Shown: positions 16,766 through 33,646, numbered from the stretch's first letter. The stretch: DNA of 64,000 bases from Acidobacteriota bacterium (GCA_026707325.1 JAPOXA010000165.1:22481-86480); one strand, 5' to 3'. Notes: generated from the sequence alone by a model not told the origin. A program made the numbers and translations.

Positions 16766-16810
16766 CACCAACGATGAACGGATCGTTGCACAGATCTCAC
16801 AATCCGTCAG
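16766..16810 (-). promoter_or_regulatory. class C promoter with 20-nt palindrome
   Basis: -35 CTGACG, 17 nt, -10 AACGAT; palindrome CAACGATccgttcATCGTTG at 16769-16788. Confidence 0.45.
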
Positions 16811-17121
16811 GCCACCTCTGCCAGCGCGTCCCGACGTCTCCACGTCCGGTCCAGTCTGCGAGTCAGGCGTTCGCAGGCGTCCATCCTCTGCGTTGTCGGC
16901 CGACAGCCGGCCGCAGCGGCCAGCGACCGGGTGGCATCGTCCAGCGCGTCGTCCGCCGCGCGGAGCAACTGCCAGCGCGCGAATGTGACCGCGGTCGCGG
17001 AGTCGACACCCGGCGGCAGCACCAGCCGCTCCGCCGTGCATTCGCGCCCCTCGTCGACCAAGTCCTGGAGCAGGTCCAGGCAGCGGTTCGCGTTGTCCAA
17101 CTTGCGGCTGAAGAAGTTCAT
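16807..17121 (-). CDS. hypothetical protein (paralog of 17323..17613)
   Basis: Start MNFFSRKL after GGGAGAAAACGGAATG; both end in ALAEV. Confidence 0.45.
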   Translation of the reverse strand: MNFFSRKLDNANRCLDLLQDLVDEGRECTAERLVLPPGVDSATAVTFARWQLLRAADDALDDATRSLAAAAGCRPTTQRMDACERLTRRLDRTWRRRDALAEVA

Positions 17122-17322
17122 TCCGTTTTCTCCCTTCGTGAAGTGATTCCTCATTCTCCAGTCTCCTGTCTCACACAGAAGATCCGCGGACAGTCGAGGT
17201 GGTGGTCCGGGTTGACCGGCGTGGCCACCTCGTGGACCAGGACGACAGCTCCCAGCGCGATCGCACCCAGCGACAGCGTGATCACGACGGCGCACAGTCC
17301 GATGACGATCGAATGCCTCACG

Positions 17323-17613
17323 TCAAACCACCTCCGCCAGCGCGGCGTAGCGGCGCCGGCACTCCACGATCGCAGCGACCAGCCGAGCGGGCTCGGCGAC
17401 TCGCCAGACTGCGGGCCACACGTGGGGATCGCGGGCGGCGATCCGCTCCGCGGTGTCCAGGTGGTGATCGATCGTGTCGAGTCTCTGCCAGTTGGGACAC
17501 GTCGTCCGGCGATCCTCCGCGACCAGCCGCTCGAGGATGGTCAGGCACCGGCGCGCCGTGGTCACCGCCCGTGCGGCCTCGGTGTCGGGGGTTGAACGTC
17601 CGATTCGGCTCAT
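17323..17613 (-). CDS. hypothetical protein (paralog of 16807..17121)
   Basis: Start MSRIGRS after GGAGAAAACGGAATG. Confidence 0.45.
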   Translation of the reverse strand: MSRIGRSTPDTEAARAVTTARRCLTILERLVAEDRRTTCPNWQRLDTIDHHLDTAERIAARDPHVWPAVWRVAEPARLVAAIVECRRRYAALAEVV

Positions 17614-17646
17614 TCCGTTTTCTCCTCGCCCCGTCGGGGGCCGCAA

Positions 17647-17689
17647 TCAACGATGAACGGATCGTTGCACAGATCTCACAATCCGTCAA
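17647..17689 (-). promoter_or_regulatory. class C promoter with 20-nt palindrome
   Basis: -35 TTGACG (17684-17689), 17 nt, -10 AACGAT (17661-17666); palindrome 17648-17667. Confidence 0.5.
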
Positions 17690-17699
17690 CCCCCCCCCC
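17690..17699. repeat. C10/G10 homopolymer abutting the -35
   Basis: Ten consecutive C on + strand directly upstream of the TTGACG hexamer. Confidence 0.9.
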
Positions 17700-17724
17700 A
17701 ACAAAAGGGGCCTGGGTAAACCCC

Positions 17725-18003
17725 CGCGGACCACGACCGCGGCCTCCTGGTCGACCGGCGCGGACCACGACCGCGGACCACGACCGCGGACCACGACCGC
17801 GGCCTCCTGGTCGACCGGCGCGGACCACGACCGCGGCCTCCTGGTCGACCGGCGCGGACCACGACCGCGGACCACGACCGCGGACCACGACCGCGGCCTC
17901 CTGGTCGACCGGCGCGGACCACGACCGCGGCCTCCTGGTCGACCGGCGCGGACCACGACCGCGGACCACGACCGCGGACCACGGGACCACGACCGCGGAC
18001 CAC
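17725..18003. repeat. non-coding tandem array of 13-bp (GCGGACCACGACC) and 21-bp (GCGGCCTCCTGGTCGACCGGC) units
   Basis: Order X Y X X X Y gives a 94-bp higher-order period, about 3 copies (17725, 17819, 17913). Confidence 0.9.
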
Positions 18004-18011
18004 GCACGTGA

Positions 18012-18281
18012 CCAATTGAGCTTTCCCTCTTTCCCTTCCTTGACCAATCGAGCTTTCCCCATCCCAGTCCCGGAGCCAATCCCTTCGCCAATCGAGCTTT
18101 CCCCATCCCAGTCCCGGAGCCAATCCCTTCGCCAATCGAGCTTTCCCCATCCCAGTCCCGGAGCCAATCCCTTCGCCAATCGAGCTTTCCCCATCCCAGT
18201 CCCGGAGCCAATCCCTTCGCCAATCGAGCTTTCCCCATCCCAGTCCCGGAGCCAATCCCTTCGCCAATCGAGCTTTCCCTC
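18012..18281. repeat. non-coding 44-bp tandem array, about 5.5 copies
   Basis: Unit ccaatcgagctttccccatcccagtcccggagccaatcccttcg starts at 18044, 18088, 18132, 18176, 18220, 18264. Confidence 0.9.
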
Positions 18282-18395
18282 AGATGCCAAGCGGCCACCC
18301 AGCGGGCCAGCGGACGGTGGACCATGAACCAGCCCTTCGGCCAGTCCCGTGCTTTCCCCCGGAAGCCATTTCCGCTACGGGCAGCAGAGACCAGA

Positions 18396-18617
18396 TCAGA
18401 CTTCCACGACGATCCTCTGGATACGGTCCACGATTTCCATGACCTTGTCGCTGTCGGGGTCGCTGCCAACCATCTCAGCGATGTCGACCGCGGCTTCCAT
18501 CGTTGCCATGACGATGCCTTCCTGAGCATCATCGTTGGTGTGTCCCATCCGTTCCAGGGCCGATTCCGCCAGCAGGCAGATGTTCGTGGCCGGGACGTTC
18601 TTTCGTGTCGTTGCCAT
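18396..18617 (-). CDS. small acidic protein
   Basis: 73-aa ORF behind a class A module. Confidence 0.5.
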   Translation of the reverse strand: MATTRKNVPATNICLLAESALERMGHTNDDAQEGIVMATMEAAVDIAEMVGSDPDSDKVMEIVDRIQRIVVEV

Positions 18618-18648
18618 GTTGCGTTTTCCTTTCGCCCGGTGGGCCTGT

Positions 18649-18692
18649 GTTCAACGTGAGAGAAGTATGGCGGAGTGGATCCCGGCGGTCAA
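18649..18692 (-). promoter_or_regulatory. class A promoter-leader module
   Basis: -35 TTGACC (18687-18692), 17 nt, -10 CATACT (18664-18669), 7 nt, CGTTGAAC (18649-18656). Confidence 0.6.
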
Positions 18693-18786
18693 GCAGCCAC
18701 CCAGCGGGCCAGCGGACCGCGGCGGTGGACCATGAACCAGTTCCGCCGGCTGGCCCGTGGTCTCACTCGTGCTTTCCCTCTTTCCC

Positions 18787-18975
18787 TCAGTCGGCCAGTT
18801 CGACGATCTGGCCCACGGCCATGCCGGGCCGGGCATCCACGATCCGGCGATCGGCTTCGGGATGCAGCTTCTGGCTGATGGCCTTGTAGACACTCGATAT
18901 CCGTGTCCGGCGACCGGATTCGGCTTCGGCTTCGGGATGCAGCTTCTGGCTGATGGCCTTGTAGACATTCGACAT
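18787..18975 (-). CDS. small protein with internal VYKAISQKLHPEA duplication
   Basis: Start MSNVYKA after GGAAGAAAAACGAAATG. Confidence 0.45.
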   Translation of the reverse strand: MSNVYKAISQKLHPEAEAESGRRTRISSVYKAISQKLHPEADRRIVDARPGMAVGQIVELAD

Positions 18976-19005
18976 TTCGTTTTTCTTCCTGCCCGGTGGG
19001 CTGTC

Positions 19006-19049
19006 GTTCAACGTGTTAAGAGTATGGCGGAGTGGATCCCGGCGGTCAA
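19006..19049 (-). promoter_or_regulatory. class A promoter-leader module
   Basis: -35 TTGACC, 17 nt, -10 CATACT, CGTTGAAC box. Confidence 0.6.
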
Positions 19050-19217
19050 GCGGCCACCCAGCGGGGCCAGCGTACCGCGGCGGTGGACCATGGCCGCAGC
19101 CTGTCTACCAATCGAGCCTTCCCGGACCGCGTCGGTGTCGAGCTCACTGGCTGGTTTGTGCTTTCCCCGACAGAATCCCTCACTGTATCGAGCTTTCCCT
19201 GTACGAGGCGAGAGCCC

Positions 19218-19604
19218 TCATTTCGGTTCCCCGTTCAGAGCTTCGGCCCAGGACCGGCGGCTCAGGATGGCTTTCGCTTCGGCGACGTTGATGCTGCGCC
19301 GTTGTGAGTGCTTGACCCGCCTCAATATCTGGGTCGGTTCCGCGCTCAGGTATCCGGAGACTGCATTGATGAACGAGGCCAGCGGCCTGTCCTGCCGCCG
19401 AGAGTTGCATTGGTGGCAGGCCGTAACCAAGTTCGTTTCGTGGTTCCAACCGCCCTTGCTGCGGGGCTTGACGTGATCCAGAGTCAGCCTAGCTTCGTCT
19501 TCCACCGTCGATCCGCAGTAAACGCAGGCCAGACCGTCGCGCATGTAGATCGCCAGTCGTTTCTCCCGGCGAATCCAGTTCATGCCCTGAGTATGTGTCG
19601 TCAT
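19218..19604 (-). CDS. HNH endonuclease
   Basis: CVYCGS...LTLDHVKPRSKGGWNHETNLVTACHQCNSRR. Confidence 0.85.
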   Translation of the reverse strand: MTTHTQGMNWIRREKRLAIYMRDGLACVYCGSTVEDEARLTLDHVKPRSKGGWNHETNLVTACHQCNSRRQDRPLASFINAVSGYLSAEPTQILRRVKHSQRRSINVAEAKAILSRRSWAEALNGEPK

Positions 19605-19637
19605 TCCGTTTTCGTTTCCGGCGGCGTGCCGCCCTGC

Positions 19638-19681
19638 GTTCAACGTGAGAAAAGTATGACTGAGTGGGTCCCGGTTGTCCA
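19638..19681 (-). promoter_or_regulatory. class A promoter-leader module
   Basis: -35 TGGACA, 17 nt, -10 CATACT, CGTTGAAC box. Confidence 0.55.
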
Positions 19682-19712
19682 CGAACCAGGCCCTGCGCGG
19701 GCGAGCCCGCTC

Positions 19713-19952
19713 CTAGTCGAACGCCCGCCGCAGATCGCGACGCGCCGCCCGGAGCTCGAAGCCGTCAAAGGCGCCGCCGAGCATGTGCGCCAAGCAGACC
19801 TCGTCGCGGGACAGGTAGCCGACCACGTTGCCGTCGACGCGAACCGCCCACTCGCTCGCGTCGTCGCAGAAGTCGTCGCAGCACTTGATGGTCAGGATGG
19901 AGCAGGGGTGCCGGCGGCCGTCGCGACTGGGCATCCCGTGAATCGTGGTCAT
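19713..19952 (-). CDS. hypothetical protein
   Basis: 79-aa ORF behind a class A module. Confidence 0.45.
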   Translation of the reverse strand: MTTIHGMPSRDGRRHPCSILTIKCCDDFCDDASEWAVRVDGNVVGYLSRDEVCLAHMLGGAFDGFELRAARRDLRRAFD

Positions 19953-19980
19953 TTCGTTTCCCCTTGCCCTGTGGGCTGTC

Positions 19981-20024
19981 GTTCAACGTGGTAAGAGTAT
20001 GACTGAGTGGATCCCGGCGGTCAA
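19981..20024 (-). promoter_or_regulatory. class A promoter-leader module
   Basis: -35 TTGACC, 17 nt, -10 CATACT, CGTTGAAC box. Confidence 0.6.
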
Positions 20025-20117
20025 CGAACCACCCCAGCGGGGCCAGCGGACCGCGGGCGGTGGACCGCCGCCGGCTCCCAGCGCCAGCCTCGGTCCGATT
20101 CTCGCGTTCAGGCTACT

Positions 20118-20363
20118 TCATCCTCGGACTCCTTCCCGTTCGCTCGCACTTTCCCTCAGTGACAGGCTGGGCTTCCAGATGCCCGACTCCACGAACCGGT
20201 ATCGCTCCAGCATGTCGATCCGCGCTTGCGCGGCCTCCTCCGTGCCGAAGCGCTCGACCGAGAAGTCGCCGCGCATCTCGTTGCCATCGGCATCGATCAG
20301 GCGCCAGTCGCCGCGATTCGCCGCCTCGGCCTCTTCGATCCGATCGTGGACTCGCGACCTCAC
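20118..20363 (-). CDS. hypothetical protein
   Basis: GTG start overlapping the stop of 20360..20485 (GTGA); charged 81-aa product. Confidence 0.4.
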   Translation of the reverse strand: MRSRVHDRIEEAEAANRGDWRLIDADGNEMRGDFSVERFGTEEAAQARIDMLERYRFVESGIWKPSLSLRESASEREGVRG

Positions 20364-20485
20364 GATGACACCACGCGGAACCGAATGGCCATGCTCAAGC
20401 CCAACCCGTGAGCCTGACGCGCCGTGAAGCAGCGGGCCACCGCGACCCACTTGCCGTTGAGCCATTGCTCGAGAATGAACTTCAT
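20360..20485 (-). CDS. 41-aa micro-ORF
   Basis: ATG placed exactly as in other modules (GAGAGAAACGCAATG); below the track size cut-off. Confidence 0.3.
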   Translation of the reverse strand: MKFILEQWLNGKWVAVARCFTARQAHGLGLSMAIRFRVVSS

Positions 20486-20519
20486 TGCGTTTCTCTCTCC
20501 CTGCCCCGGCGGGGCTGCC

Positions 20520-20563
20520 GTTCAACGTGAGAACAGTATGGCAGAGTGGATCCCGGCGGTCAA
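20520..20563 (-). promoter_or_regulatory. class A promoter-leader module
   Basis: -35 TTGACC, 17 nt, -10 CATACT, CGTTGAAC box. Confidence 0.6.
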
Positions 20564-20639
20564 TGCACCACCCAGCAGGGCCGGAAACCTACCGGTCCGC
20601 ACCAGCCGGCGCGCCAGACACGACAGCTCGCACTTTCCC

Positions 20640-20885
20640 TCAACGATCGGCATCGGGTTCGTCCACCGCGCTCCAGAGACCCACAAGCTGCGCCGGCCGC
20701 ATCTCCCGAAACCGGGCCACGGTGAACTCCACGCACAAGCCGTTGCCCAAACCCTCAAACATGGACAACGACCATCGCGTCAGACCATCCAATCGCACCT
20801 TGTTGAGCTCGCGCTTTCCCTCTGGCAATCGAAGCGCATGCTCGTCCACCGTGCTCCAGCCGCCCACTCGCCGAACTCCCGACAT
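20640..20885 (-). CDS. hypothetical protein
   Basis: ATG overlaps the stop of 20885..21271; stop followed by GGGAAAGTGCGAGC box. Confidence 0.4.
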   Translation of the reverse strand: MSGVRRVGGWSTVDEHALRLPEGKRELNKVRLDGLTRWSLSMFEGLGNGLCVEFTVARFREMRPAQLVGLWSAVDEPDADR

Positions 20886-21271
20886 CAGACGACACCCGGC
20901 GAAAAGTCCACCGCGGCCAAGCACTCCCGCGGACTGCCGAAGGACATCGGCGCCACCGGACCGCGAACCTGTACCCAGCGACCCCAACGAGACTCCTTCA
21001 CGCAGACGATCTCCTCGATCACCCACTCGCCAGGACCAACCTGACGCACACCCAGCGGCCGCGCGAAGACCGGCGACCCGGGTACAACGTCCACGATCGG
21101 ACGACGCTCGATCACCGGCTCATCCTGCCCCCAAGCCGCGTCAGGATGCAAGTCGATCAACCGCTCGATCGCCGCCACGAACGCGGGGTCGCTCACGTTC
21201 ACGGGACCAGGCTCCACAGGAACCTGACCAGCTAGCTGAGCGGCCGACAAGGCCACCGCCAACATCTGCAT
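20885..21271 (-). CDS. hypothetical protein
   Basis: Start MQMLAVAL after AGGAGAAAATGCAATG. Confidence 0.5.
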   Translation of the reverse strand: MQMLAVALSAAQLAGQVPVEPGPVNVSDPAFVAAIERLIDLHPDAAWGQDEPVIERRPIVDVVPGSPVFARPLGVRQVGPGEWVIEEIVCVKESRWGRWVQVRGPVAPMSFGSPRECLAAVDFSPGVV

Positions 21272-21306
21272 TGCATTTTCTCCTGTCTGCCCCCGGCGGG
21301 GCTGCC

Positions 21307-21350
21307 GTTCAACGTGAGAACAGTATGACAGGAGTTGTCCGAAGGGCCAA
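21307..21350 (-). promoter_or_regulatory. class A promoter-leader module
   Basis: -35 TTGGCC, 17 nt, -10 CATACT, CGTTGAAC box. Confidence 0.55.
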
Positions 21351-21368
21351 GGAACCACCCAGCAGGGG

Positions 21369-21809: not shown

Positions 21810-21815
21810 TTGCCC

Positions 21816-21824
21816 ACTATATCA
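21816..21824 (-). promoter_or_regulatory. extended -10 promoter (TGATATAGT), leaderless GTG start
   Basis: -10 ends 6 nt before the GTG at 21809. Confidence 0.45.
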
Positions 21825-21834
21825 AGCCAGAGTG

Positions 21835-21943
21835 CAGAATCTGAACCGTTCTCGGCGAAACGGTGTGGCCAAAAAGTCTCCTATGGGCCGAGCACCCCAA
21901 GTCGGGAATCTGCACCATTTCCGTCCTGGCGGTTCAGATTCCG
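21835..21943. promoter_or_regulatory. three operator-like GAATCTG(A/C)ACC sites
   Basis: 21835-21847 and 21904-21916 direct, 21930-21943 inverted; first overlaps the -35 region of the GIY-YIG promoter. Confidence 0.45.
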
Positions 21944-23082: not shown

Positions 23083-23156
23083 TTTTGCGTCTCCTTTGCC
23101 CTCGCGGGCGGTCGTTCAACGTGGTAAGAGTCCGGCTGTGGAGTCCACGGCATGAC

Positions 23157-23438
23157 TCAGCCTTCCGCCATTTCGCGGGCGACTCGGGCGACCTTCTGGA
23201 AGGCGCGAGAGATCGAGTGCGTAGCCGCGTGGTAGGACTGAACCTCTTCTCGGTCAGCCGTCTCCGGCCTGATGACGATGGCCGGGCCATTGCCCAGGTC
23301 TTGGTACAGCTCCCGCATCCGAGAAAGCATGGCGCGCAGTTCACACTCGGCCTCGATGATCCGCAGAGTGCGATCGCCGATCTCCGAGATCTCATGGGCG
23401 GTCTGCGCGTCCAACAGAACGCTCGGCTTCACTGACAT
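23157..23438 (-). CDS. hypothetical protein (tandem paralog of 22741..23082)
   Basis: Start MSVKPSV after AGGAAACGCAAAATG. Confidence 0.5.
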   Translation of the reverse strand: MSVKPSVLLDAQTAHEISEIGDRTLRIIEAECELRAMLSRMRELYQDLGNGPAIVIRPETADREEVQSYHAATHSISRAFQKVARVAREMAEG

Positions 23439-23468
23439 TTTGCGTTTCCTTTGCCCTCGCGGGCGGTC

Positions 23469-23512
23469 GTTCAACGTGGTAAGAGTATGACAGCGTTGGT
23501 CCCGGCGGTCAA
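23469..23512 (-). promoter_or_regulatory. class A promoter-leader module
   Basis: -35 TTGACC, 17 nt, -10 CATACT, CGTTGAAC box. Confidence 0.6.
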
Positions 23513-23597
23513 CGAACCACCCCAGCAGGGCCAGCGGACCGCGGGCGGTGGACCCGCGCCGGAAACCAGCGACAGGCCCTCACTTCGTCTTGGCCAG

Positions 23598-24172: not shown

Positions 24173-24203
24173 CTTTCATTTCCTCTCGGCCGCGTGGCCT
24201 GTC

Positions 24204-24247
24204 GTTCAACGTAAGAACAGTATGGCAGAGGGGGTCGCGGCGGTCAA
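24204..24247 (-). promoter_or_regulatory. class A promoter-leader module
   Basis: -35 TTGACC, 17 nt, -10 CATACT, CGTTGAAC box. Confidence 0.6.
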
Positions 24248-24344
24248 CGCGCTACCCAGGGAAGCCGTGGGCGGTGGTCGAGGGCTCGACCCGTTGGCCA
24301 GCCGTCATCGACTGGCGTCTTGGGTCGAGCCCTCTGGGACCGGG

Positions 24345-24980
24345 CTACGCAGCCTCGGCCTCGGCGGCCTCGGCGGCCGCAGCGGCCGCGTTGGCCTTGC
24401 GGGTCACCCAGGCCTTCTTCGCGCGGGCGCTCGCCGCCGCCGCCTTCTCCTCGGGCGTCAGCTCCGGCTTCGGCGCCGGGGGCACCCAGTCGGGACCGCG
24501 CCGCGTGGCCCATGCCTTATGGGCGCGGGCGCTGGCCGCAGCCGCCTTCTCCTCGGGCGTCAGCTCCGGCTTCGGCTCCGGGGCCACCCAGTCGGGACCG
24601 CGCCGCGTGGCCCATGCCTTATGGGCGCGGGCGCTGGCCGCAGCCGCCTTCTCCTCGGGCGTCAGCTCCGGCTTCGGCTCCGGGGCCACCCAGTCGGGAC
24701 CGCGCCGCGTGGCCCATGCCTTATGGGCGCGGGCGCTGGCCGCAGCCGCGACGTCGGCCGCCTCGGACTCGACGTGCGCGGACAGCGCGTCGCGGGCGGC
24801 GTCGTAGAGCCGCTTCCGCTCGGTCGCGTCCTGAACGTCGGCCGTGTAGCCGCCGTCGGCGTCCGTGATCGAGCCCACGCTGTTGCCGTCGACCGTAACG
24901 TCGTAGCCGCCGGCGTTGGCCTCGAGCACGACGGCGAAGGCGACCTCGCCGATCGTCAGGTTGTAGTTCGTGTTCGACAT
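24345..24980 (-). CDS. tandem-repeat protein (34-aa KAWATRRGPDW units)
   Basis: 3.5 copies of ASARAHKAWATRRGPDWVAPEPKPELTPEEKAAA; same architecture as 15181..15909. Confidence 0.6.
   Translation of the reverse strand: MSNTNYNLTIGEVAFAVVLEANAGGYDVTVDGNSVGSITDADGGYTADVQDATERKRLYDAARDALSAHVESEAADVAAAASARAHKAWATRRGPDWVAPEPKPELTPEEKAAAASARAHKAWATRRGPDWVAPEPKPELTPEEKAAAASARAHKAWATRRGPDWVPPAPKPELTPEEKAAAASARAKKAWVTRKANAAAAAAEAAEAEAA
24400..24750. repeat. 102-bp tandem repeat, about 3.5 copies, in-frame
   Basis: Unit starts at 24403, 24505, 24607, 24709. Confidence 0.85.
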
Positions 24981-25038
24981 TCCGTTTTCCTCCTTGGACC
25001 TTTCGGCCCGGTTTGTGTGTGCGGGGTGACTGCCCCGC

Positions 25039-25083
25039 GTTTCAACGTGACAGAAGTATGGCAGGGTGGATCCCAGCGGTCAA
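25039..25083 (-). promoter_or_regulatory. class A promoter-leader module
   Basis: -35 TTGACC, 17 nt, -10 CATACT, CGTTGAAA box; longer leader. Confidence 0.55.
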
Positions 25084-25331
25084 CTATCCATGCCAAGGCA
25101 ACCAGGAGAGATTGGACCGCGGGCGGTGGACCAGCCCATGACGTCAAGGTCCGCCTCGGACTCATGGATGAAGACGCTGTTATTCACTCGCACGCACTTT
25201 CCCGGAAACCGGATACCGAGCAGGATCGCCAGCGGGCAGTTGTCCTCGTCACAAGCGGTCCCGGACATGATCGCTGCTTCGGTCATCTCGACTTCGACGA
25301 TTCCCGGCAGGTTGTACTTGTCGGACCTCAC
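25080..25331 (-). CDS. hypothetical protein (CPLA family)
   Basis: IVEVEMTEAAIMSGTACDEDNCPLAILLG. Confidence 0.45.
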   Translation of the reverse strand: MRSDKYNLPGIVEVEMTEAAIMSGTACDEDNCPLAILLGIRFPGKCVRVNNSVFIHESEADLDVMGWSTARGPISPGCLGMDS

Positions 25332-26831: not shown

Positions 26832-26860
26832 TTCATTTCCTCTCGGCCGCGTGGCCTGTC

Positions 26861-26904
26861 GTTCAACGTGAGAGAAGTATGGCAGTGGGGGTCCCGGCGG
26901 TCAA
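26861..26904 (-). promoter_or_regulatory. class A promoter-leader module
   Basis: -35 TTGACC, 17 nt, -10 CATACT, CGTTGAAC box. Confidence 0.6.
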
Positions 26905-27044
26905 CGGACGAGCCAGAGCGGCCGGAAGGTTCATGTACGTGGGCGGTGGACGGGATTCTGGGCCAGCAGGGGTTCGTAGGCGTCCTGCATATCGGCCCGA
27001 CCACCATCAGCCTTCATCTCGGCCAATGCCAGATACTCCCCGTC

Positions 27045-28273: not shown

Positions 28274-28455
28274 TGTGTTTCTCCTTGGCCAGGACTTGGC
28301 CATGTCCTGCTGCCGTCCGGCGTCCACACGAGGTCTTCGTGGTACTCCATGTACTCACGCTCGACGACAGCAAGGGCGTGTCTCGCACTCCTGGCGGTAC
28401 TCCTCGAAGGAGATACCGGAAGGTTCACCGCACCGGCCGCCAGCCGCAACGGCAC

Positions 28456-28920: not shown

Positions 28921-29222
28921 GCCGCCCCCTCGAGCCGGAACACGACACCGCGCGGCCTGACTCCGTGGATCTCGACTGCGGTTTCGTAGCGCAGCCGGCC
29001 GACCGAAACTCCGTGCTGGATGACGTTCACGACGTCGTCCGGCTTCGGGTAGAACGAATCGATCCGGAAGTCCTCGTGCTTCATTCCCATGTTGTCGCAC
29101 CAGTGGTCGATGCAGCGCATGGTGAACTCGTGATCGTCGAAGGCCCGGTGAAAGTAGAACTTTCCACTCCACGGAGCTCGGTGATAGACCTCGAATCTCG
29201 GGGCGTGATGATGACTGGACAT
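28917..29222 (-). CDS. hypothetical protein
   Basis: Start MSSHHHA after AGGAGAAACGCAATG. Confidence 0.5.
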   Translation of the reverse strand: MSSHHHAPRFEVYHRAPWSGKFYFHRAFDDHEFTMRCIDHWCDNMGMKHEDFRIDSFYPKPDDVVNVIQHGVSVGRLRYETAVEIHGVRPRGVVFRLEGAA

Positions 29223-29251
29223 TGCGTTTCTCCTGCCGCGTTGCGGCTGTC

Positions 29252-29295
29252 GTTCAACGTAGGAAGATCCTACGCGAGCGGATCGCAGTTGTCCA
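29252..29295 (-). promoter_or_regulatory. class B promoter-leader module
   Basis: -35 TGGACA, 17 nt, -10 TAGGAT, 7 nt, CGTTGAAC. Confidence 0.55.
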
Positions 29296-29347
29296 CTCGT
29301 AAGGACTGTTCGGTTGAGGATCAGCGGTCCGCGGCCGTGGTCAAGAG

Positions 29348-29602
29348 TCAAGGTTCAGTGCCAGTGAAAGCGCCGGCCAACTCGGACTCGAGAATGCTGC
29401 CGCATCTAAGGCATGTCACTCGAGTTCGCGGCTCTTGGTCGAAGGGAATACGCACGGGCTTTCGGTCGGGCCGATGATGCCAGGCATCTTCAAGATCGAC
29501 GAACGCGCGGATCGTGTGGCCGAACCGCTTGAGCTCAACTCCACAGACGGCGTGTTGAGCCAGTTGGCCTGGCTGAATCGCATGGGTCTTCTTGCTGGAC
29601 AT
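29348..29602 (-). CDS. hypothetical protein
   Basis: 84-aa ORF after GGAGAAACGCAATG. Confidence 0.45.
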   Translation of the reverse strand: MSSKKTHAIQPGQLAQHAVCGVELKRFGHTIRAFVDLEDAWHHRPDRKPVRIPFDQEPRTRVTCLRCGSILESELAGAFTGTEP

Positions 29603-29685
29603 TGCGTTTCTCCGGTCGGCTTAGGCCGGAGGGATCGGCAGCAGTAGCAGTACCGACCCCTCCGACCCAGCCTCGTTGAACGACC

Positions 29686-30057
29686 CTACCGTGGGTCGAG
29701 AGAAGACTGGTGTTCGCGCGCCGCCTTCCGCGCCGCGGCCTTGATCTTCGTGTACTCGTCGTCGAGATCACGAGCCTTGCAGGCGATCATGGCAAGATGC
29801 GCGACAGTGACAGGTCCGTAGGCCAAGCAGAGGCCCCGGATACGTTCGTGGCAGACGGCAAGGTCCGTGTGGTGATCTATGACCTTCCGGACGATCGGAT
29901 CGTTCTTGTCGTCCTCGTCATCGGGCAACGGATGCTCTTCGCCGTTCACCCACAACATGCCCTTGGCCTCGGCCGCAAGTTCACGCTCGAACTCTTCGAT
30001 CGTTCGGGGGTTCAGGAATGGAATACTCTGGCTCATCGACCACGTCGCCCTCTTCAT
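29686..30057 (-). CDS. hypothetical protein
   Basis: ATG overlaps upstream stop (TGATG). Confidence 0.45.
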   Translation of the reverse strand: MKRATWSMSQSIPFLNPRTIEEFERELAAEAKGMLWVNGEEHPLPDDEDDKNDPIVRKVIDHHTDLAVCHERIRGLCLAYGPVTVAHLAMIACKARDLDDEYTKIKAAARKAAREHQSSLDPR

Positions 30058-30368
30058 CAGTCCGCCATCCTTCCCAGCCGGCCAGTCCAAGTTTCGCGTG
30101 TCATCCGACTGACCCTAGCCTCGGCCCGGGCTGTGTCCCGCCGCCACTTCTCAGCCGCAGCCTTGTTCAGCTTCCGGCGCTGTGCCGGCGTGACCCCGGC
30201 CTTGATGTCCCTGATCTTCCACTGCGCATCGGTAAGTTCGTTGCCGACCCGAAGCATCTCGTCGTGAAGTTCTGAGCTGTAGCCGCGCCGACGCCGCTCA
30301 CACAGGTCGTCGTACTGCTTCTTGAGCCTTACGACATGAGCCTCCCACTGAGCCAGTGTTCGTGCCAC
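30057..30368 (-). CDS. hypothetical protein
   Basis: GTG start after GGGGGAAAGAAG; basic coiled-coil-like. Confidence 0.45.
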   Translation of the reverse strand: MARTLAQWEAHVVRLKKQYDDLCERRRRGYSSELHDEMLRVGNELTDAQWKIRDIKAGVTPAQRRKLNKAAAEKWRRDTARAEARVSRMTRETWTGRLGRMAD

Positions 30369-30443
30369 CTTCTTTCCCCCTTATCCAAACAGTGAGCCCG
30401 GCACCGTTTCGATCGCAGATTGACTTCGCTGACGCGGGCTGTC

Positions 30444-30487
30444 GTTCAACGTGACAGAAGTATGGAAGAAGAGTTCCGGCTGGTCAA
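30444..30487 (-). promoter_or_regulatory. class A promoter-leader module
   Basis: -35 TTGACC, 17 nt, -10 CATACT, CGTTGAAC box. Confidence 0.55.
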
Positions 30488-30571
30488 CTCAGGCACGAGA
30501 TGAGACTGGCGCTCGCGCGCATTCCCGGGCAAGACGATGACGGCACTGCTTGCGGCGTTCCTCCGGCTTCA

Positions 30572-30928
30572 TCAGTGGGAACACCCCATCTCGTTCTCGG
30601 TGTCTTCGGCGATTGCGTGAGCGAGGGCATCCGCCGCCTCGCCGACCGTGAGCTGCGCGTTCAGATCGTCGACCAGATCCTTCTTGAAATGATGGAACCG
30701 TATCTCGAACGGCTGACAGTTCACGATCATCAGCAAGATCAGACGGCCCATGCGGCGCTTGTCGCCCTCCGCTGCGTAGTAGATGTCCCGGTCGTCACCG
30801 TAGGACGTCTCCGTGTACAGGACCCAACCGCACTGCTCGCAGTTGATCTCCTTGGGCTCGCTGGCCGATTGCCGCTCGAAGCTAAGCAAGCTGAGACAAC
30901 TGGCGCACCGGCACTCGACCGGCCTCAA
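30572..30928 (-). CDS. hypothetical Cys-containing protein
   Basis: Proposed TTG start overlapping the preceding stop; CRCASC...CEQCG. Confidence 0.35.
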   Translation of the reverse strand: MRPVECRCASCLSLLSFERQSASEPKEINCEQCGWVLYTETSYGDDRDIYYAAEGDKRRMGRLILLMIVNCQPFEIRFHHFKKDLVDDLNAQLTVGEAADALAHAIAEDTENEMGCSH

Positions 30929-31043
30929 AAGGGCACCTCGTCGCAAGAGGATTGCCGATGATCCTCGTTGAAGCCACGGGCCAACTTCTCCGCGTAGACT
31001 TCGTCTTCGTACATACCCCAACCTTGTTCCTCGCGTTCTTCTT

Positions 31044-31355
31044 CTAGCGGATCGGGCAAGTTCCTGAACCGCTCGTTCGTGTAGATGCGGATGCCGCTCT
31101 TGCGTGTAGCCCACGCCTTCTTCGTGGCGTTACAATCTCGTCGATGCTCGACAGGTGACTAGGCAGGCATCCCTTGTTGCACCTGAGCCATCCCGCATAG
31201 CGTTCGGAACGAACCGAGAAACGGACGTCGGGCCAACGATCTCGAAGGTAGCCCCTTATCAGAGACGCAACATCAACGAGACCAATGGATGGGGCCACAC
31301 CGGAACTCGTGTACTTGCTTCGTGCTTCCTCAACGATCTTCCTGGCGCTTGGCAT
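31044..31355 (-). CDS. hypothetical protein; C-terminal part doubtful
   Basis: N-terminal 75 aa look protein-like (WPDVRFSVRSERYAG); the tail is Arg-rich while the -1 frame (31158 down to 30925) reads as a plausible protein. Confidence 0.35.
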   Translation of the reverse strand: MPSARKIVEEARSKYTSSGVAPSIGLVDVASLIRGYLRDRWPDVRFSVRSERYAGWLRCNKGCLPSHLSSIDEIVTPRRRRGLHARAASASTRTSGSGTCPIR

Positions 31356-31551
31356 TCAGCACCTCCTTGTCGAATCCTCGTGCGGCACAGGACAGAATCT
31401 CGATCGCCAGCCCCGCACTTACCTTTCCGGAGTCGAGCAGCTTCTCTAGACTTGGCCAGCCATCGCCGGTTGCCTTTCGCAGCCACTCACGCTTCATGTA
31501 CTCGCGTTCTTCCGACTCCTTGAGGAGCCGACCATCCTTGCTCATGGTCAT
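31330..31551 (-). CDS. hypothetical protein
   Basis: 73-aa ORF. Confidence 0.4.
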   Translation of the reverse strand: MTMSKDGRLLKESEEREYMKREWLRKATGDGWPSLEKLLDSGKVSAGLAIEILSCAARGFDKEVLNAKRQEDR

Positions 31552-31554
31552 GGC

Positions 31555-31728
31555 CTAGAAGCTCAGGTCCTCGAGTGGCGAGTCGAGGCCCGAGCATTCG
31601 ATGACCTCAACGACCTCTTCGCACTCGACGATTATGTCGGCGACTTCGGCACCCTCGATCACGTCAAAGGTCTCCACCAGTTCGAGGCCGCAGGCAATGA
31701 CGAGGATGCGTTCGATCAGCTTCCACAT
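31555..31728 (-). CDS. small acidic protein
   Basis: 57 aa from MWKLIERILV. Confidence 0.35.
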   Translation of the reverse strand: MWKLIERILVIACGLELVETFDVIEGAEVADIIVECEEVVEVIECSGLDSPLEDLSF

Positions 31729-32201
31729 CTCCGCTCTTCCCGAAATCTCTCGAGCAGACCACGCCAGAAGTCCTTGACCTCTTCGGTGTGGTTCGGGTAC
31801 TCGGCCGCGTGCTTGAGAGAGCCGAAGTAGTCGGCCTCCGCCATCTCGACGAGGAACTGCGCCGAGTTCTCGTACTCTCCAGCCTTTGCGTAGAAGGAAA
31901 ACACCTTCTTGTGGGCATCCTCCCAAACTAGAGACCCGCTATCGGTGGCGCGTTCACGGAAGAAGGCTTCGCTCTGGCACAGACTCTCCATCCTGCCAAC
32001 GATCACGTCAAAGCAGTTCTTGACGCGACGATGGAACCGGCCGCACATGGCCGGATTACTGGCGTGTCTGGCCTTGCCGCAGGCGAAGCCGAAGTCCTCG
32101 ATCTCTTGCAAGTTGCGTCGAACCGACTTCAGATCGGACAATACCGCACGGTAGTTGATTCGGACAGTTTCTTCCTCTGTCGCCAGAGGGATGCTGGACA
32201 T
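31716..32201 (-). CDS. hypothetical protein
   Basis: Start MSSIPLATEE after AGGAGGACCGCAATG. Confidence 0.5.
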   Translation of the reverse strand: MSSIPLATEEETVRINYRAVLSDLKSVRRNLQEIEDFGFACGKARHASNPAMCGRFHRRVKNCFDVIVGRMESLCQSEAFFRERATDSGSLVWEDAHKKVFSFYAKAGEYENSAQFLVEMAEADYFGSLKHAAEYPNHTEEVKDFWRGLLERFREERRCGS

Positions 32202-32231
32202 TGCGGTCCTCCTTGCCCCGAGTAGGGCCTC

Positions 32232-32276
32232 GTTCAACGATGAGAGGATCCTACGTCAGAGGGTCGCGGGTGTCAA
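32232..32276 (-). promoter_or_regulatory. class B promoter-leader module
   Basis: -35 TTGACA, 17 nt, -10 TAGGAT, 8 nt, CGTTGAAC. Confidence 0.6.
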
Positions 32277-32561
32277 CTCTCTGCGCGTCACCGGCCGCAA
32301 CGACATCGAGTAGATGCACCGTGGCCCTGGGCCGACCATGATGGCGTACTCGTCGTAGTCCATCGCCTCGATGTGGACAAAGTGGCCTCGAACAATCAAC
32401 TCATCCAGCGTCTCGATCTCGCTGTCATCGTCCAGCCGCATCTTGCGGCCTTTCGGGTAGCGATCGCACGGACCATCCGGCCGCTCCTCGATCTCGCGCT
32501 TGAAGCGGTCGCAAAGATCGCGCCAGAACCGATACCAGCGTCGCGTGAAGAAGGCGAGCAC
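32256..32561 (-). CDS. hypothetical protein
   Basis: 101-aa ORF; 3' end runs into the downstream promoter. Confidence 0.45.
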   Translation of the reverse strand: MLAFFTRRWYRFWRDLCDRFKREIEERPDGPCDRYPKGRKMRLDDDSEIETLDELIVRGHFVHIEAMDYDEYAIMVGPGPRCIYSMSLRPVTRRELTPATL

Positions 32562-32848
32562 TAGACGAACTCGATTCTCATGACCTGGACCGTCGCTTTG
32601 TCGTCTTTGGCGTACTCCAGCCGGCCCCTGACGACGATCGAAGACCTGTCTCGGGCTTTCTCGAGCAACCTCGCAGTGCCGCCGAACGCGCGGCAGGTAT
32701 GGACCTCGGAGCCCTGACCCACCGTGCCGTCGTTGTTCCGCCAGCGTCGGTGAGTCTCGACTCCCAGGAAGGTGATCGGCGTACCGTTGGACGCCGTTGG
32801 CGTCTTGGCAGGCCCGTGGACCTTGCCAACCAGTGTGACCCTGTTCAC
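32561..32848 (-). CDS. short OB-fold SSB-like protein lacking an acidic tail
   Basis: MNRVTLVGKVHGPAKTP...VETHRRWRNNDG...VHTCRAFGGTA...VVRGRLEY resembles an SSB OB core. Confidence 0.6.
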   Translation of the reverse strand: MNRVTLVGKVHGPAKTPTASNGTPITFLGVETHRRWRNNDGTVGQGSEVHTCRAFGGTARLLEKARDRSSIVVRGRLEYAKDDKATVQVMRIEFV

Positions 32849-32987
32849 TGCGTTTCTCCTATCGTCGTGGACGCAGCCTCGCCAGACTCCGATCGATGTA
32901 TGTTCCCATCCTCAGCGCCAACTGGCGCATCTTCTCGTCTTCGCTTGCCGCTGAGCCGGTGCAACCTGGCCCTATCGTTGCCGATCG

Positions 32988-33155
32988 TCATTCGCCGGCA
33001 CTCGGACGGCCGACCTGGTTCCTGACCAGCTCCGGAAGCAACAGAAAAACCAGAAGACCGGGCAGGATTTTCCACACGAACAGCCACAAGGCCGTGGCGC
33101 ACAAGGCGATCGTGATGATCGCTACAACGATGTCGCCAGCACTCTTTGATTCCAT
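32988..33155 (-). CDS. 55-aa membrane micro-protein
   Basis: MESKSAGDIVVAIITIALCATALWLFVWKILPGLLVFLLLPE... after GGAAAGGAGGAAACGGAAAGC; below the track cut-off. Confidence 0.4.
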   Translation of the reverse strand: MESKSAGDIVVAIITIALCATALWLFVWKILPGLLVFLLLPELVRNQVGRPSAGE

Positions 33156-33243
33156 GCTTTCCGTTTCCTCCTTTCCGCGTTTGTCTCGCGGCGTAGTTGT
33201 CCCCGACTTTGAGAATGGTGGCAGGAAGGATCGCGGGTGTCAA

Positions 33244-33292
33244 CTCAGTTGTACACCACATCGGAGACTGTCTACCTCGCGGTATAAGCCCC
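33244..33292 (-). mobile_element. solo copy of the TnpB-element left end
   Basis: GGGGCTTATACCGCGAGGTAGACAGTCTCCGATGTGGTGTACAACTGA (minus strand) matches the first 49 nt of the three full elements. Confidence 0.7.
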
Positions 33293-33295
33293 TGC

Positions 33296-33571
33296 TCATT
33301 CATCACCCTCGGCCAGTGCCTTGCTGGCCAGACCACAGTATTCCGACACGTCGTCCAGGAAGTTCTCGACGTGCTCGATGGTCAAGCGCCGGTCGTCCTC
33401 ATCGCAGTCCGGCTGCGAGTCGAGGTGGCGATCGAACGCGCGCCAAGACGGCTCAAGCAGACGGCCGGCCTGGAACTCGAGTTCGGTTTGCAGGTCGTAG
33501 TCGGTTTGGTGTTCAACCTTGCCGTCTACGAGAAGTCGAGCTTCAAGCTCGATCCTGACGTTCTTCGTCAT
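33296..33571 (-). CDS. hypothetical protein
   Basis: Start MTKNVRIE preferred. Confidence 0.45.
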   Translation of the reverse strand: MTKNVRIELEARLLVDGKVEHQTDYDLQTELEFQAGRLLEPSWRAFDRHLDSQPDCDEDDRRLTIEHVENFLDDVSEYCGLASKALAEGDE

Positions 33572-33601
33572 GCGTTGAATGCGAGCCCCTTTTCGCGTGA
33601 A

Positions 33602-33646
33602 GTTCAACGACATGAAGATCCTACTTGCGCGGATCGCAGTTGTCAA
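33602..33646 (-). promoter_or_regulatory. class B promoter-leader module
   Basis: -35 TTGACA (33641-33646), 17 nt, -10 TAGGAT (33618-33623), CGTTGAAC (33602-33609). Confidence 0.6.

What the first reader, a model, noticed from the sequence alone, without database searches (positions are those of the whole stretch)
16766..33646. About 20 dispersed copies of one promoter + transcribed-box + hairpin + RBS module, giving a chain of near-monocistronic micro-gene cassettes
Read on the minus strand, the module is: -35 (TTGACC, TGGACA or TTGACA), exactly 17 nt, -10 (CATACT in class A, TAGGAT in class B), 7-8 nt, then invariant CGTTGAAC. A short GC hairpin of variable sequence follows (GGCCCACCGGGC, GCCCCGCCGGGGC, GGCCACGCGGCC, CCGCCCGCGAGGGC). 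It ends in a near-constant start context, GGAGAAACGCAATG. Copies begin at 18649, 19006, 19638, 19981, 20520, 21307, 23469, 24204, 25039, 26861, 29252, 30444, 32232 and 33602, plus 11080, 51007 and 60633 outside the block. Most drive only one or two ORFs of 40-130 codons. The conserved transcribed box and hairpin are not required by a sigma70-type promoter, so they suggest a shared regulatory target at the RNA or DNA level. The logic resembles the promoter-stem-loop (PeSL) cassettes described in T4-type phages, but the sequence appears unrelated.
Basis: partly seen in the sequence, partly recalled or inferred. Interest (0 to 1): 0.7.

Follow-up and report, generated by a model that had tools for sequence, protein, structure and literature searches.

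The report
Repeated phage promoter-leader cassettes
An uncultivated ~100-kb phage linked to an Acidobacteria host carries about 20 copies of one standard [quoted passage not shown] cassette in front of its small early genes; the kind is already known from T4-like phages, but this version has an unexplained, strictly conserved box at the start of the RNA.

Summary
The window holds 16 complete composite sites (-35, 17 nt, -10, 7-8 nt, CGTTGAAC) on the coding (minus) strand. It also holds one promoter-less leader copy, two class C variants, two box-less promoters and one weak copy. A further full copy lies just outside the window. A diverged relative from another metagenome (73-93% nucleotide identity) has eight such modules, all with exact CGTTGAAC. 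In six orthologous pairs the box (1/48 changes) is as constrained as the -35 (2/36) and -10 (1/36). The spacer (22/102) and discriminator (8/42) drift. The hairpin changes sequence but keeps pairing, with G-U pairs, so it acts in the sense RNA. The modules precede unrelated ORFs and lie at or next to ORF insertions and replacements between the two phages. They also show a genome-specific shared substitution, which indicates concerted evolution. Best reading: host-RNA-polymerase promoters fused to a standard 5' leader, functionally like T4-type PeSL cassettes. "Near-monocistronic" is not supported: no T-tract terminator lies inside the block. What the box does (initial transcribed sequence, operator or RNA tag) remains unresolved.

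The parts
60599..60676 (-). Class A module (TGGACA-17-CATACT-7-CGTTGAAA, hairpin, SD) outside the block
50976..51050 (-). Class A module (TGGACA-17-CATACT-7-CGTTGAAC) outside the block
33572..33646 (-). Class B module (TTGACA-17-TAGGAT-8-CGTTGAAC). The box can pair with UUCAACG just before the AUG.
32202..32276 (-). Class B module (TTGACA-17-TAGGAT-8-CGTTGAAC), hairpin GCCCU/GGGGC with a U-G pair
30369..30487 (-). Class A module with a long (84 nt) leader
29223..29295 (-). Class B module (TGGACA-17-TAGGAT-7-CGTTGAAC), hairpin GCCGC-AAC-GCGGC. Its ortholog in L165 is identical from box to ATG.
26832..26904 (-). Class A module, hairpin GGCC-ACGC-GGCC. The ortholog in L166 has GCCC-ACCCA-GGGC, a compensatory change.
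24981..25083 (-). Class A module (box CGTTGAAA) with a 68-nt leader and two hairpins
24173..24247 (-). Class A module. Homology to the relative ends within a few bases of the annotated GTG start codon, and the downstream ORF is replaced.
23439..23512 (-). Class A module, hairpin GCCC-GCGA-GGGC
23083..23131 (-). Promoter-less leader copy (box, hairpin, SD). It is the second unit of a tandem duplication whose junction lies inside the -10.
21272..21350 (-). Class A module (-35 TTGGCC)
20486..20563 (-). Class A module, hairpin GCCCC-GCC-GGGGC
19953..20024 (-). Class A module
19605..19681 (-). Class A module (TGGACA), hairpin GGCGG-CACG-CCGCC
18976..19049 (-). Class A module
18618..18692 (-). Class A module
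17614..17689 (-). Class C variant: TTGACG-17-AACGAT-7-TCGTTGAT, hairpin GCCCC-CGAC-GGGGC, SD
16721..16810 (-). Class C variant: (C)TGACG-17-AACGAT-7-TCGTTGGT, hairpin, SD
33215..33243 (-). Related promoter without the box (TTGACA-17-CACCAT), followed by hairpin and SD
48418..48446 (-). Related promoter without the box (TGGACA-17-TACACT), followed by a hairpin
11080..11123 (-). Weak, diverged copy (TATACT-8-CGTTGAGC, poor -35)
17698..17725 (-). The only canonical stem + T-run terminator on the coding strand. It ends the class A/B promoter domain.

Best explanation
The repeats are a family of portable expression cassettes of a ~100-kb phage.

Promoter (inferred function, shown anatomy). Each cassette is a strong sigma-70/sigma-A-type promoter read by the host RNA polymerase. 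It has a -35 of TTGACC, TGGACA or TTGACA, a 17-bp spacer that often carries a TG extended -10, and a -10 of CATACT or TAGGAT.

Box (shown to be under selection; role inferred). Transcription is inferred to start at the A that lies 7 nt after the -10. Every transcript would then begin A-CGUUGAAC. I take this box to act in cis as the initial transcribed sequence and common 5' end that such strong, escape-limited promoters need for productive initiation.

Hairpin (shown to be maintained; role inferred). Four nucleotides further on, a 4-6-bp GC stem-loop forms in the RNA, directly before a strong Shine-Dalgarno site. It most likely stabilises and insulates the 5' leader and keeps the ribosome site open.

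Deployment. The cassettes are placed in series along a 16-kb stretch of small non-structural genes that has no internal terminator, so each re-boosts transcription of the next 1-7 ORFs. Because the copies are near-identical, they recombine with each other. That homogenises them and makes them breakpoints for gain, loss and replacement of ORFs, as described for PeSL elements of T4-like phages.
For: Anatomy and excess over chance.

Position: every copy is on the coding strand, directly upstream of an SD and start codon.

Selection: six orthologous pairs with a relative (L165, L166, L169) give -35 2/36, -10 1/36 and box 1/48 changes. The spacer gives 22/102 and the discriminator 8/42. All 8 modules of the relative carry exact CGTTGAAC.

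Link to initiation: the box keeps its 7-8 nt distance from the -10 across classes A and B (16 copies), whose spacers and -10 hexamers differ. The two class C copies keep only CGTTG at that distance.

Hairpin: the 26 nt after the box fold to a mean of -7.6 kcal/mol, against -5.0 for random segments (P=3e-4) and -4.5 for shuffles. Four different stems sit in the same register, with self-complement 10/10 and cross-complement 1/48. On a CM-fitted alignment 96.9% of cells pair, 3 of 4 pairs change on both sides, and the covariation score is 0.368 against 0.069 for shuffles (0/500). Orthologs show compensatory changes. U-G pairs indicate the sense RNA.

Shuffling: downstream proteins are unrelated except for 3 paralog pairs. 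Homology between copies runs only from the -35 to the start codon. One ORF is replaced within a few bases of the annotated start codon. One ORF is inserted about 50 nt upstream of the -35, just 5' of the upstream box of a module. Extra modules lie inside insertions.

Concerted evolution: the base after the -35 is G in 9 of 10 copies here and A in 6 of 6 in the relative (P=9e-4).

Literature: initial transcribed sequence variants change productive transcription from the phage T5 N25 promoter by up to 25-fold (PMC12464699). PeSL anatomy and behaviour are taken from PMC4122927.
Against: No start-site data exist. The host polymerase's promoter preference is unknown. Invariance over 8 nt is more than promoter escape alone is known to require. 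Box-less relatives of the promoter exist (33215-33243 and 48418-48446), so the box is not obligatory for a promoter of this type. The promoter-less copy at 23114 keeps a perfect box, although mosaic identity suggests gene conversion. CGTTGAACG is a 9-bp palindrome, and class C carries AACGAT-N6-ATCGTT, both compatible with an operator. No upstream stem-loop is consistently present as it is in PeSLs.
Confidence: 0.5

Rival explanations
1. The box is a DNA operator. A phage-encoded (or host) repressor binds CGTTGAAC(G) at +2 to +10 of about 20 promoters and switches the whole set off, or on, together. This would be a dispersed-operator regulon of the kind I recall from memory for P1 C1 operators, L5 stoperators and phiC31 conserved inverted repeats.
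For: Invariance equals that of the promoter hexamers. The position overlaps the start site. CGTTGAACG is a 9-bp palindrome in 12 of 15 exact minus-strand copies. Class C has AACGAT-N6-ATCGTT spanning the -10 to the box. Box-less promoters of the same family exist, so two differently regulated sets are possible.
Against: Conservation is polar: ACGTTGA is invariant while the 3' half is looser. A 4+1+4 palindrome is short for a dimeric repressor. All copies share one orientation and a fixed spacing. No HTH, RHH, repressor or integrase family was detected among 91 window ORFs scanned against Pfam; only one weak HTH was found, in a terminase-small-like protein. The PHROGs scan of the same 91 ORFs listed only its 25 largest families and is not informative on this point.
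Confidence: 0.2
2. The box plus hairpin is an RNA-level signal, a common 5' leader recognised by a trans-acting factor. That factor could be a translational repressor or RNase of the T4 RegA/RegB type, a nut-like antitermination factor, or an sRNA. It would co-regulate all these transcripts.
For: The hairpin is selected as sense-strand RNA. The box would be the extreme 5' end of each RNA. The promoter-less copy at 23114 keeps box, hairpin and SD intact inside a read-through transcript. A linear box followed by a small stem-loop is the layout of lambda nut sites (boxA + boxB; from memory).
Against: Hairpin loops are not conserved (ACC, ACA, GCC, GCGA, ACGC, AAC, ACUC, CACG), unlike boxB. There are no internal terminators to antiterminate. 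No Rfam family matches. The predicted closing helix CGUU/AACG is not supported, because AACG also occurs at module-less genes and the box is kept where AACG is absent.
Confidence: 0.2
3. The roughly 50-bp conserved unit that reaches into the transcribed region is the promoter of a phage-encoded RNA polymerase or sigma factor. This would resemble T7-type promoters, which span -17 to +6 (from memory).
For: Conservation extends past +1, and partly conserved spacer positions are present.
Against: The hexamers, the exact 17-bp spacing and the TG extended -10 are canonical sigma-70 features. The spacer and discriminator drift freely between orthologs. No RNA polymerase or sigma family was found in the window or in the adjoining 10 kb; only a sub-threshold region-4-like HTH was seen. 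About 30 kb of the genome was not examined.
Confidence: 0.05
4. The primary function is recombination. On this reading the repeats are site-specific recombination sites of a cassette system. The box GTTGAAC fits the integron attC core GTTRRRY (from memory).
For: ORF indels lie next to or at module edges. Cassette-like small ORFs follow each other in series.
Against: There is no inverse core (GTTCAAC) partner in the modules; the only two plus-strand hits are at chance level. No tyrosine or serine recombinase was detected in the window. The promoter features are far more specific than an attC-like site would require. Homologous recombination between near-identical copies is enough to explain the shuffling.
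Confidence: 0.03

Closest known systems
PeSL (promoter-early stem-loop) cassettes of T4-like myoviruses (PMC4122927, PMC2839356)
   Same: Many near-identical copies of a sigma-70-type promoter ending in an SD and start codon. They are concentrated among small ORFs of unknown function in the plastic, non-structural part of the genome and are rare near structural genes. They head unrelated ORFs and sit next to insertions, deletions and replacements between close relatives.
   Different: In PeSLs the stem-loop lies upstream of the promoter and is terminator-like. Here the conserved stem-loop is downstream, in the 5' leader, and an upstream stem-loop is inconsistent. PeSLs have no invariant transcribed box. 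The sequences are unrelated, the genome has 62% G+C, no T4-like core gene was seen in the window, and the host is probably an Acidobacterium.
Initial transcribed sequence of strong phage early promoters (T5 N25; PMC12464699)
   Same: A host-polymerase promoter whose first ~10 transcribed bases strongly tune productive initiation. The paper argues that the phage promoter has evolved an optimal transcribed start.
   Different: That case concerns a single promoter studied in vitro. Here one 8-9-nt transcribed box is shared by more than 20 promoters and conserved between genomes. No functional data exist.
Start-associated sequences (SAS/ESAS) of cluster K mycobacteriophages (PMC3203893)
   Same: Short asymmetric repeats in one orientation, in the non-structural half of the genome, directly upstream of start codons of unrelated genes. 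They are conserved across related phages and their function is unknown.
   Different: SAS overlap the ribosome site and are not tied to a promoter. ESAS inverted repeats do not covary and are thought to be DNA sites. Here the box is locked to the -10 and the hairpin does covary.
Dispersed operator regulons of temperate phages (L5 stoperators, cited in PMC3203893; P1 C1 operators and phiC31 CIRs from memory)
   Same: Tens of copies of one short asymmetric site spread over the genome, in one orientation relative to transcription.
   Different: Those sites bind a known repressor and need no fixed distance from a promoter. No repressor or lysogeny gene was found here.
Lambda nut sites (boxA + boxB; from memory)
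   Same: A conserved linear box followed by a short GC stem-loop early in the transcript.
   Different: The boxB loop sequence is essential and conserved, whereas loops vary freely here. Lambda has two nut sites per genome, not twenty, and there are no terminators here to override.

Membership tests
Sigma-70/sigma-A-type bacterial promoter | -35 and -10 hexamers close to TTGACA/TATAAT, with A at position 2 and T at position 6 of the -10, separated by 16-18 bp | tested here: met
   13 modules pass an independent consensus scan (15 sites against 2.3 expected). All 16 complete modules have a 17-bp spacer, and several have TG before the -10.
Sigma-70/sigma-A-type bacterial promoter | Selective constraint on the hexamers but not on the spacer sequence | tested here: met
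   Orthologs: -35 2/36, -10 1/36, spacer 22/102 changes.
Sigma-70/sigma-A-type bacterial promoter | Transcription initiates 6-9 nt downstream of the -10 | not testable with these tools
PeSL (T4-like phages) | Sigma-70-like early promoter followed by the SD and start codon of the downstream gene | tested here: met
PeSL (T4-like phages) | Stem-loop (terminator-like) located just upstream of the promoter | tested here: not met
   Upstream folds are heterogeneous. No T-tract terminators occur above chance. The conserved stem-loop is downstream of the start site.
PeSL (T4-like phages) | Enrichment in hyperplastic regions of small ORFs and scarcity near structural genes | tested here: met
   14 complete copies plus the promoter-less leader at 23114 lie in 18.6-33.6 kb. 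Only 2 complete copies lie in the other ~47 kb of the window and 1 in the adjoining 10 kb.
PeSL (T4-like phages) | Association with indels or replacements between close relatives | tested here: met
   ORF replaced within a few bases of the start codon after the c24204 ortholog. An 88-aa ORF is inserted about 50 nt upstream of the -35 of c29252, just 5' of its upstream box. Extra modules lie inside insertions.
PeSL (T4-like phages) | Host genome is a T4-like myovirus | tested here: not met
   No T4 core gene families were found among the window ORFs. The replication set is Erf, RecE-like, SF2 helicase and primase. There is no nucleotide similarity to INPHARED phages, and the helicase gives only distant protein matches below 60% identity.
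Lambda-type nut site | boxB stem-loop with a conserved loop recognised by N | tested here: not met
   Loops differ in sequence and length among copies.
Lambda-type nut site | Downstream terminators that are overridden | tested here: not met
   Terminator-like sites are at chance level, and none lies inside the block on the coding strand.
Dispersed repressor operators (stoperator / P1 C1 type) | A cognate repressor encoded by the phage | tested here: inconclusive
   No repressor, HTH_3, RHH or integrase family was found in 91 window ORFs. Many small ORFs have no family, and ~30 kb of the genome was not seen.
Integron attC | Paired inverse core (RYYYAAC) and core (GTTRRRY) sites plus an integron integrase | tested here: not met
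   The box fits GTTRRRY, but there is no inverse core in the modules and no recombinase family.
Known RNA families (Rfam 15) | Match to a curated covariance model | tested here: not met
   No hit at gathering score in the window, and only one chance-level hit at E<=5 in the block.

The most novel reading that the evidence does not exclude
The invariant box, together with the adjoining stem-loop, is the target of a dedicated trans-acting factor (protein or RNA, phage or host). That factor would recognise the first nine nucleotides of about 20 transcripts, or the same bases in DNA, and switch the phage's whole set of small early genes at once. This would be a promoter-locked 'leader operator' regulon not described for any phage, found in a virus of the poorly studied Acidobacteria.
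Probability: 0.3. Interest if true: 0.7.

Novelty: new variant of a known kind. Interest (0 to 1): 0.5.

Why it matters
It extends PeSL-type 'mobile regulatory cassettes' from T4-like coliphages and vibriophages to an unrelated, high-G+C, uncultivated phage linked to an Acidobacteria host. That suggests repeated promoter cassettes are a general way in which phages both express and shuffle small accessory genes.

It also defines a compact, comparatively validated promoter / 5'-UTR / RBS part for a phylum with almost no genetic tools.

Finally, it isolates an 8-nt transcribed box under selection as strong as that on the promoter hexamers. Its function is unknown, and simple experiments can address it.

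Tried and rejected
- **Close relatives in public collections.** Megablast of the block against INPHARED phages found nothing. Four DNA-pattern scans (IMG/VR twice, JGI metagenomes, GTDB genomes) gave only single chance or coding-sequence hits. Protein-seeded IMG/VR scans with the helicase and the DUF2958 protein found nothing.
- **Other assemblies of the same phage.** They are 99.98-100% identical and so uninformative.
- **Distant helicase relatives L031 and L032.** Neither has this module. L032 has its own, different six-copy repeat.
- **Closing helix CGUU/AACG around the leader.** It was predicted in most of the folded leaders but rejected. AACG belongs to a general RBS context that also occurs without the box, and the box persists without AACG.
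- **Box TTG as a start codon.** PGAP uses it for several ORFs. It is in frame with the downstream start in only 6 of 16 modules, which is the chance level.
- **Conserved upstream peptide ending at the TGA inside the -35.** Frames are inconsistent.
- **Other motif resemblances.** The LexA box, parS and integron attC were considered from memory and do not fit the conserved positions.
- **Unknown large proteins (625 aa and 494 aa).** They have no PDB, Pfam or PHROG relatives, so a hidden polymerase cannot be excluded from them.
- **Literature search for the box sequence.** It returned only primers.

Full report
**1.

CGTTGAAC occurs 17 times in the window, against 2.2 expected. Fifteen copies are on the minus strand. 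Each of those 15 sits in the same context. Fourteen have a complete -35 and -10 followed, 7-8 nt later, by the box; the copy at 23114 has lost its promoter. In all 15 a short GC hairpin, a Shine-Dalgarno site and a start codon follow the box.

- A strict regular expression finds 16 complete composites when the last two box positions are relaxed. This adds 25040 and 60633, which read CGTTGAAA.
- An independent sigma-70 consensus scan of 16.0-34.5 kb reports 15 promoter-like sites against 2.3 expected. Thirteen of them are these modules.
- An nhmmer profile retrieves 16 copies in the window at E<=5.5e-10. It also finds the box half of 23114, two promoter-only relatives (33243-33215 and 48446-48418) and the weak 11080 copy.
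- Two further copies form a class C (17689-17646 and 16810-16767). They read TTGACG, 17 nt, AACGAT, 7 nt, TCGTTG(A/G)T, followed by a hairpin and SD.
- Another full copy lies just outside the window, upstream of the terminase and structural genes (L042:11756-11805).

GGAGAAACG(N)AATG also precedes genes with no module.

**2. What the window is**

Nearly all genes are on the minus strand. Annotated products are phage-like:
- an SF2 helicase, Erf, a RecE-like nuclease, a primase and RusA;
- SSB-like proteins, ParB-like nucleases and methyltransferases;
- DUF5131, HNH and GIY-YIG endonucleases;
- three TnpB copies and a collagen/fn3 fibre protein.

The same sequence was assembled as ~100-107-kb contigs in several ENA, NCBI and Logan samples. 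NCBI bins it with an Acidobacteria MAG. A 417-bp piece (32951-32535) is 97.6% identical to a bacterial chromosome contig that co-occurs in the same sample and belongs to the same MAG. That contig is 322 kb, carries recBCD and cobN, and has 69.5% G+C. This supports that host assignment. There is no nucleotide similarity to INPHARED phages, and the helicase gives only distant protein matches there. IMG/VR, the JGI metagenome contigs and GTDB genomes gave no real match to the composite motif.

**3. A diverged relative supplies the decisive comparison**

Cluster look-ups of the small proteins revealed variants in JGI metagenome 3300012932. Three contigs were fetched: L165, L166 and L169. They are 73-93% identical to parts of 29.6-20.2 kb, with many indels. 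They carry eight modules, all with exact CGTTGAAC.

Substitution counts in the six orthologous pairs:

| Element | Changes |
|---|---|
| -35 | 2/36 |
| Spacer | 22/102 |
| -10 | 1/36 |
| Discriminator | 8/42 |
| Box | 1/48 |

The single box change restores the consensus C. The box is therefore under purifying selection as strong as that on the core promoter hexamers, while the sequences on either side of the -10 drift at about 20%. It keeps its 7-8 nt distance from the -10 across classes A and B, whose spacers and -10 hexamers differ; the two class C copies keep only CGTTG at that distance. Hitch-hiking by duplication is therefore not enough to explain it. Conservation within the box is polar: ACGTTGA is invariant and the last positions are looser.

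**4. The hairpin is a selected RNA structure**

- The 26 nt after the box fold more stably than controls. The mean is -7.6 kcal/mol, against -5.0 for random window segments (P=3e-4) and -4.5 for shuffles.
- In twelve standard-geometry copies, four different outer stems (GCCC, GCCG, GGCC, GGCG) occupy the same register. Each has its own complement: self 10/10, cross 1/48.
- I built a covariance model from four copies and aligned 23 matches to it. On that alignment 96.9% of cells pair, 3 of 4 pairs change on both sides, and the covariation score is 0.368 against 0.069 for shuffles (0/500). Slid controls collapse. The alignment is fitted to the structure, which favours it.
- Independently, four of six orthologous pairs changed the hairpin sequence yet keep a hairpin at the same offset. 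An example is GGCC-ACGC-GGCC changing to GCCC-ACCCA-GGGC.
- U-G pairs occur at 32232, L169:1540 and L169:5815. The second hairpin of 25040 has a G-U pair where the relative has A-U. These would be C-A mismatches on the other strand, so the structure is selected in the sense transcript.
- Loops are not conserved.
- No Rfam family matches.

**5. Deployment and evolution**

- By my count from the ORF calls, eleven of 17 inter-module intervals contain 1-2 ORFs and six contain 3-7.
- Terminator-like sites are at chance level. The only canonical terminator on the coding strand (17725-17698) lies at the end of the class A/B domain, immediately before the first class C promoter. The promoters therefore more likely reinforce one long read-through domain than define monocistronic units.
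- Downstream proteins are unrelated, apart from three paralog pairs.
- Homology between copies such as 24204 and 26861 runs only from the -35 to the start codon.
- Between the two phages, the ORF after the 24204 module is replaced. About 92% identity across the module ends within a few bases of the annotated GTG start codon.
- An 88-aa ORF is inserted between the stop codon of the preceding gene and the upstream box of the 29252 module, about 50 nt upstream of its -35.
- Two extra modules of the relative (L165:3265 and L169:1540) lie inside insertions absent from the window.
- The base after the -35 is G in 9 of 10 TTGACC modules of this phage and A in 6 of 6 of the relative (P=9e-4). This is a signature of concerted evolution among copies.
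- The 23114 copy is the second unit of a tandem duplication whose junction lies inside the -10. Its leader is identical to that of 23469, but identity along the unit is mosaic, which suggests gene conversion.

**6. Mechanism**

Shown:
- promoter anatomy and selection on it;
- selection on the box, tied to the -10;
- an RNA hairpin maintained by compensation;
- module edges at or next to recombination breakpoints.

Inferred:
- the host sigma-A holoenzyme starts at the A 7 nt after the -10, so the RNAs begin ACGUUGAAC;
- the box works as an initial transcribed sequence, or 5'-end element, for strong, escape-limited promoters (such sequences change the output of T5 N25 by up to 25-fold; PMC12464699);
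- the hairpin stabilises or insulates the leader next to the SD.

The main rivals are a DNA operator for an unidentified repressor and an RNA tag for a trans-acting factor. Neither is excluded. No regulator family was found among the window ORFs. A phage polymerase promoter and an attC-like recombination site are unlikely.

**7. Comparison with known systems**

The closest described system is the PeSL of T4-like phages. A PeSL is a sigma-70-like early promoter plus SD and start codon. PeSLs are enriched among small ORFs of plastic regions and associated with indels (PMC4122927). Two defining features are not met here: the stem-loop is downstream rather than upstream, and the genome is not T4-like. 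In addition, the invariant transcribed box has no PeSL counterpart. This is therefore a functional analogue, not a member.

Cluster K SAS/ESAS repeats (PMC3203893) resemble it in being start-associated, one-orientation repeats of unknown function. They differ in that they are not locked to a promoter and their inverted repeats do not covary.

**8. Verdict**

This is a real, conserved regulatory cassette: a new variant of a known kind. I rate its interest as moderate. It would rise if the box proves to be the target of a dedicated regulator.

Noticed in passing
window 32535-32951; L167/L168:9898-10314: A 417-bp segment (a 95-aa SSB-like gene plus ~100 nt upstream) is 97-98% identical to a bacterial chromosome contig. 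That contig is 322 kb, carries recBCD and cobN, has 69.5% G+C, and comes from the same samples and the same NCBI 'Acidobacteria bacterium' MAG. This is a recent phage-host gene exchange and a host link.
   Followed up: partly
window 33707-37117 (-): The 1136-aa SF2 helicase appears to contain an intein. About 27-30% of the query matches intein-bearing, otherwise unrelated proteins (RNR, NAPRTase, DNA polymerase), and the closest helicases are ~790-840 aa. DUF5131 (46495-48186) and an 854-aa protein in L042 also carry LAGLIDADG domains.
   Followed up: no
window 42968-44176, 52648-53976, 58213-59586 (-): Three TnpB (OrfB_IS605 / Cas12f-like TNB) copies are 90-92% identical to each other. In the relative L165, a TnpB 3' end abuts the start of the 84-aa gene homologous to 29348-29602 and replaces the intergenic region there.
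   Followed up: partly
window 17723-18279: An apparently non-coding stretch holds two tandem-repeat arrays: CGCGGACCACGAC-based units of 13/34/94 nt (17723-18004) and a perfect 44-nt unit x5.4 (18044-18279). It has no codon bias and lies just upstream of the terminator and the class C promoter. It may be a replication origin.
   Followed up: partly
window 18717-18728, 19075-19086, 20051-20063, 23539-23551, 24265-24277, 25117-25129, 26938-26949, 33674-33685: A second conserved box, CCACCGCC(C)RCGG, lies 18-34 nt upstream of the -35 of many modules. Spacing is variable, and it is sometimes coding and sometimes not. There are 13 matches against 2.7 expected, all on the minus strand. It is also present upstream of the modules in the relative, and it marks the 5' edge of homology at the 29252 module.
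   Followed up: partly
L032:3879-7312: Another phage-like contig from the relative's metagenome (helicase 45% identical) carries six copies of a different repeated module, (T)GTTGACAT(A/C)AATCTCATTTATGCGAAGTGGAGG, directly before small genes. It has no box or hairpin.
   Followed up: partly
window 29673-29703 (+): A leader-like element (box CGTTGAAC, hairpin GACCC-TACCGT-GGGTC, GAGAGAAG) lies in the opposite orientation, without a promoter, in the intergenic region upstream of 29602. It scores 14.8 bits (E=0.12) and is absent in the relative.
   Followed up: partly
window 15250-15594 and 24407-24749: 102-nt x3.4 tandem repeats sit inside two paralogous genes (15181-15909 and 24345-24980, 52% aa identity). 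The copy number at 24.4-24.7 kb differs between assemblies of the phage.
   Followed up: no
window 18787-19011, 23157-23474, 31716-32237, 33296-33607: Public annotation (PGAP) starts several ORFs at the TTG inside the box, giving 12-codon N-terminal extensions. The TTG is in frame in only 6 of 16 modules, so these starts are probably wrong.
   Followed up: yes
window 15909, 26211, 28273, 29602, 32848, 33155 gene starts: The RBS context (A)GGAGAAAC(G/A)NAATG recurs before genes with and without modules in the 15-33 kb region. It resembles the start-associated sequences of cluster K mycobacteriophages.
   Followed up: partly
window 113-1147 (+); L042:10450-11700: The only long opposite-strand gene is a 344-aa ORF in the window, extending to 416 aa in the neighbouring locus L042. 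It has an IS1595-type zinc ribbon and is wedged between the HTH (terminase-small-like) gene and the module that precedes the structural genes.
   Followed up: no
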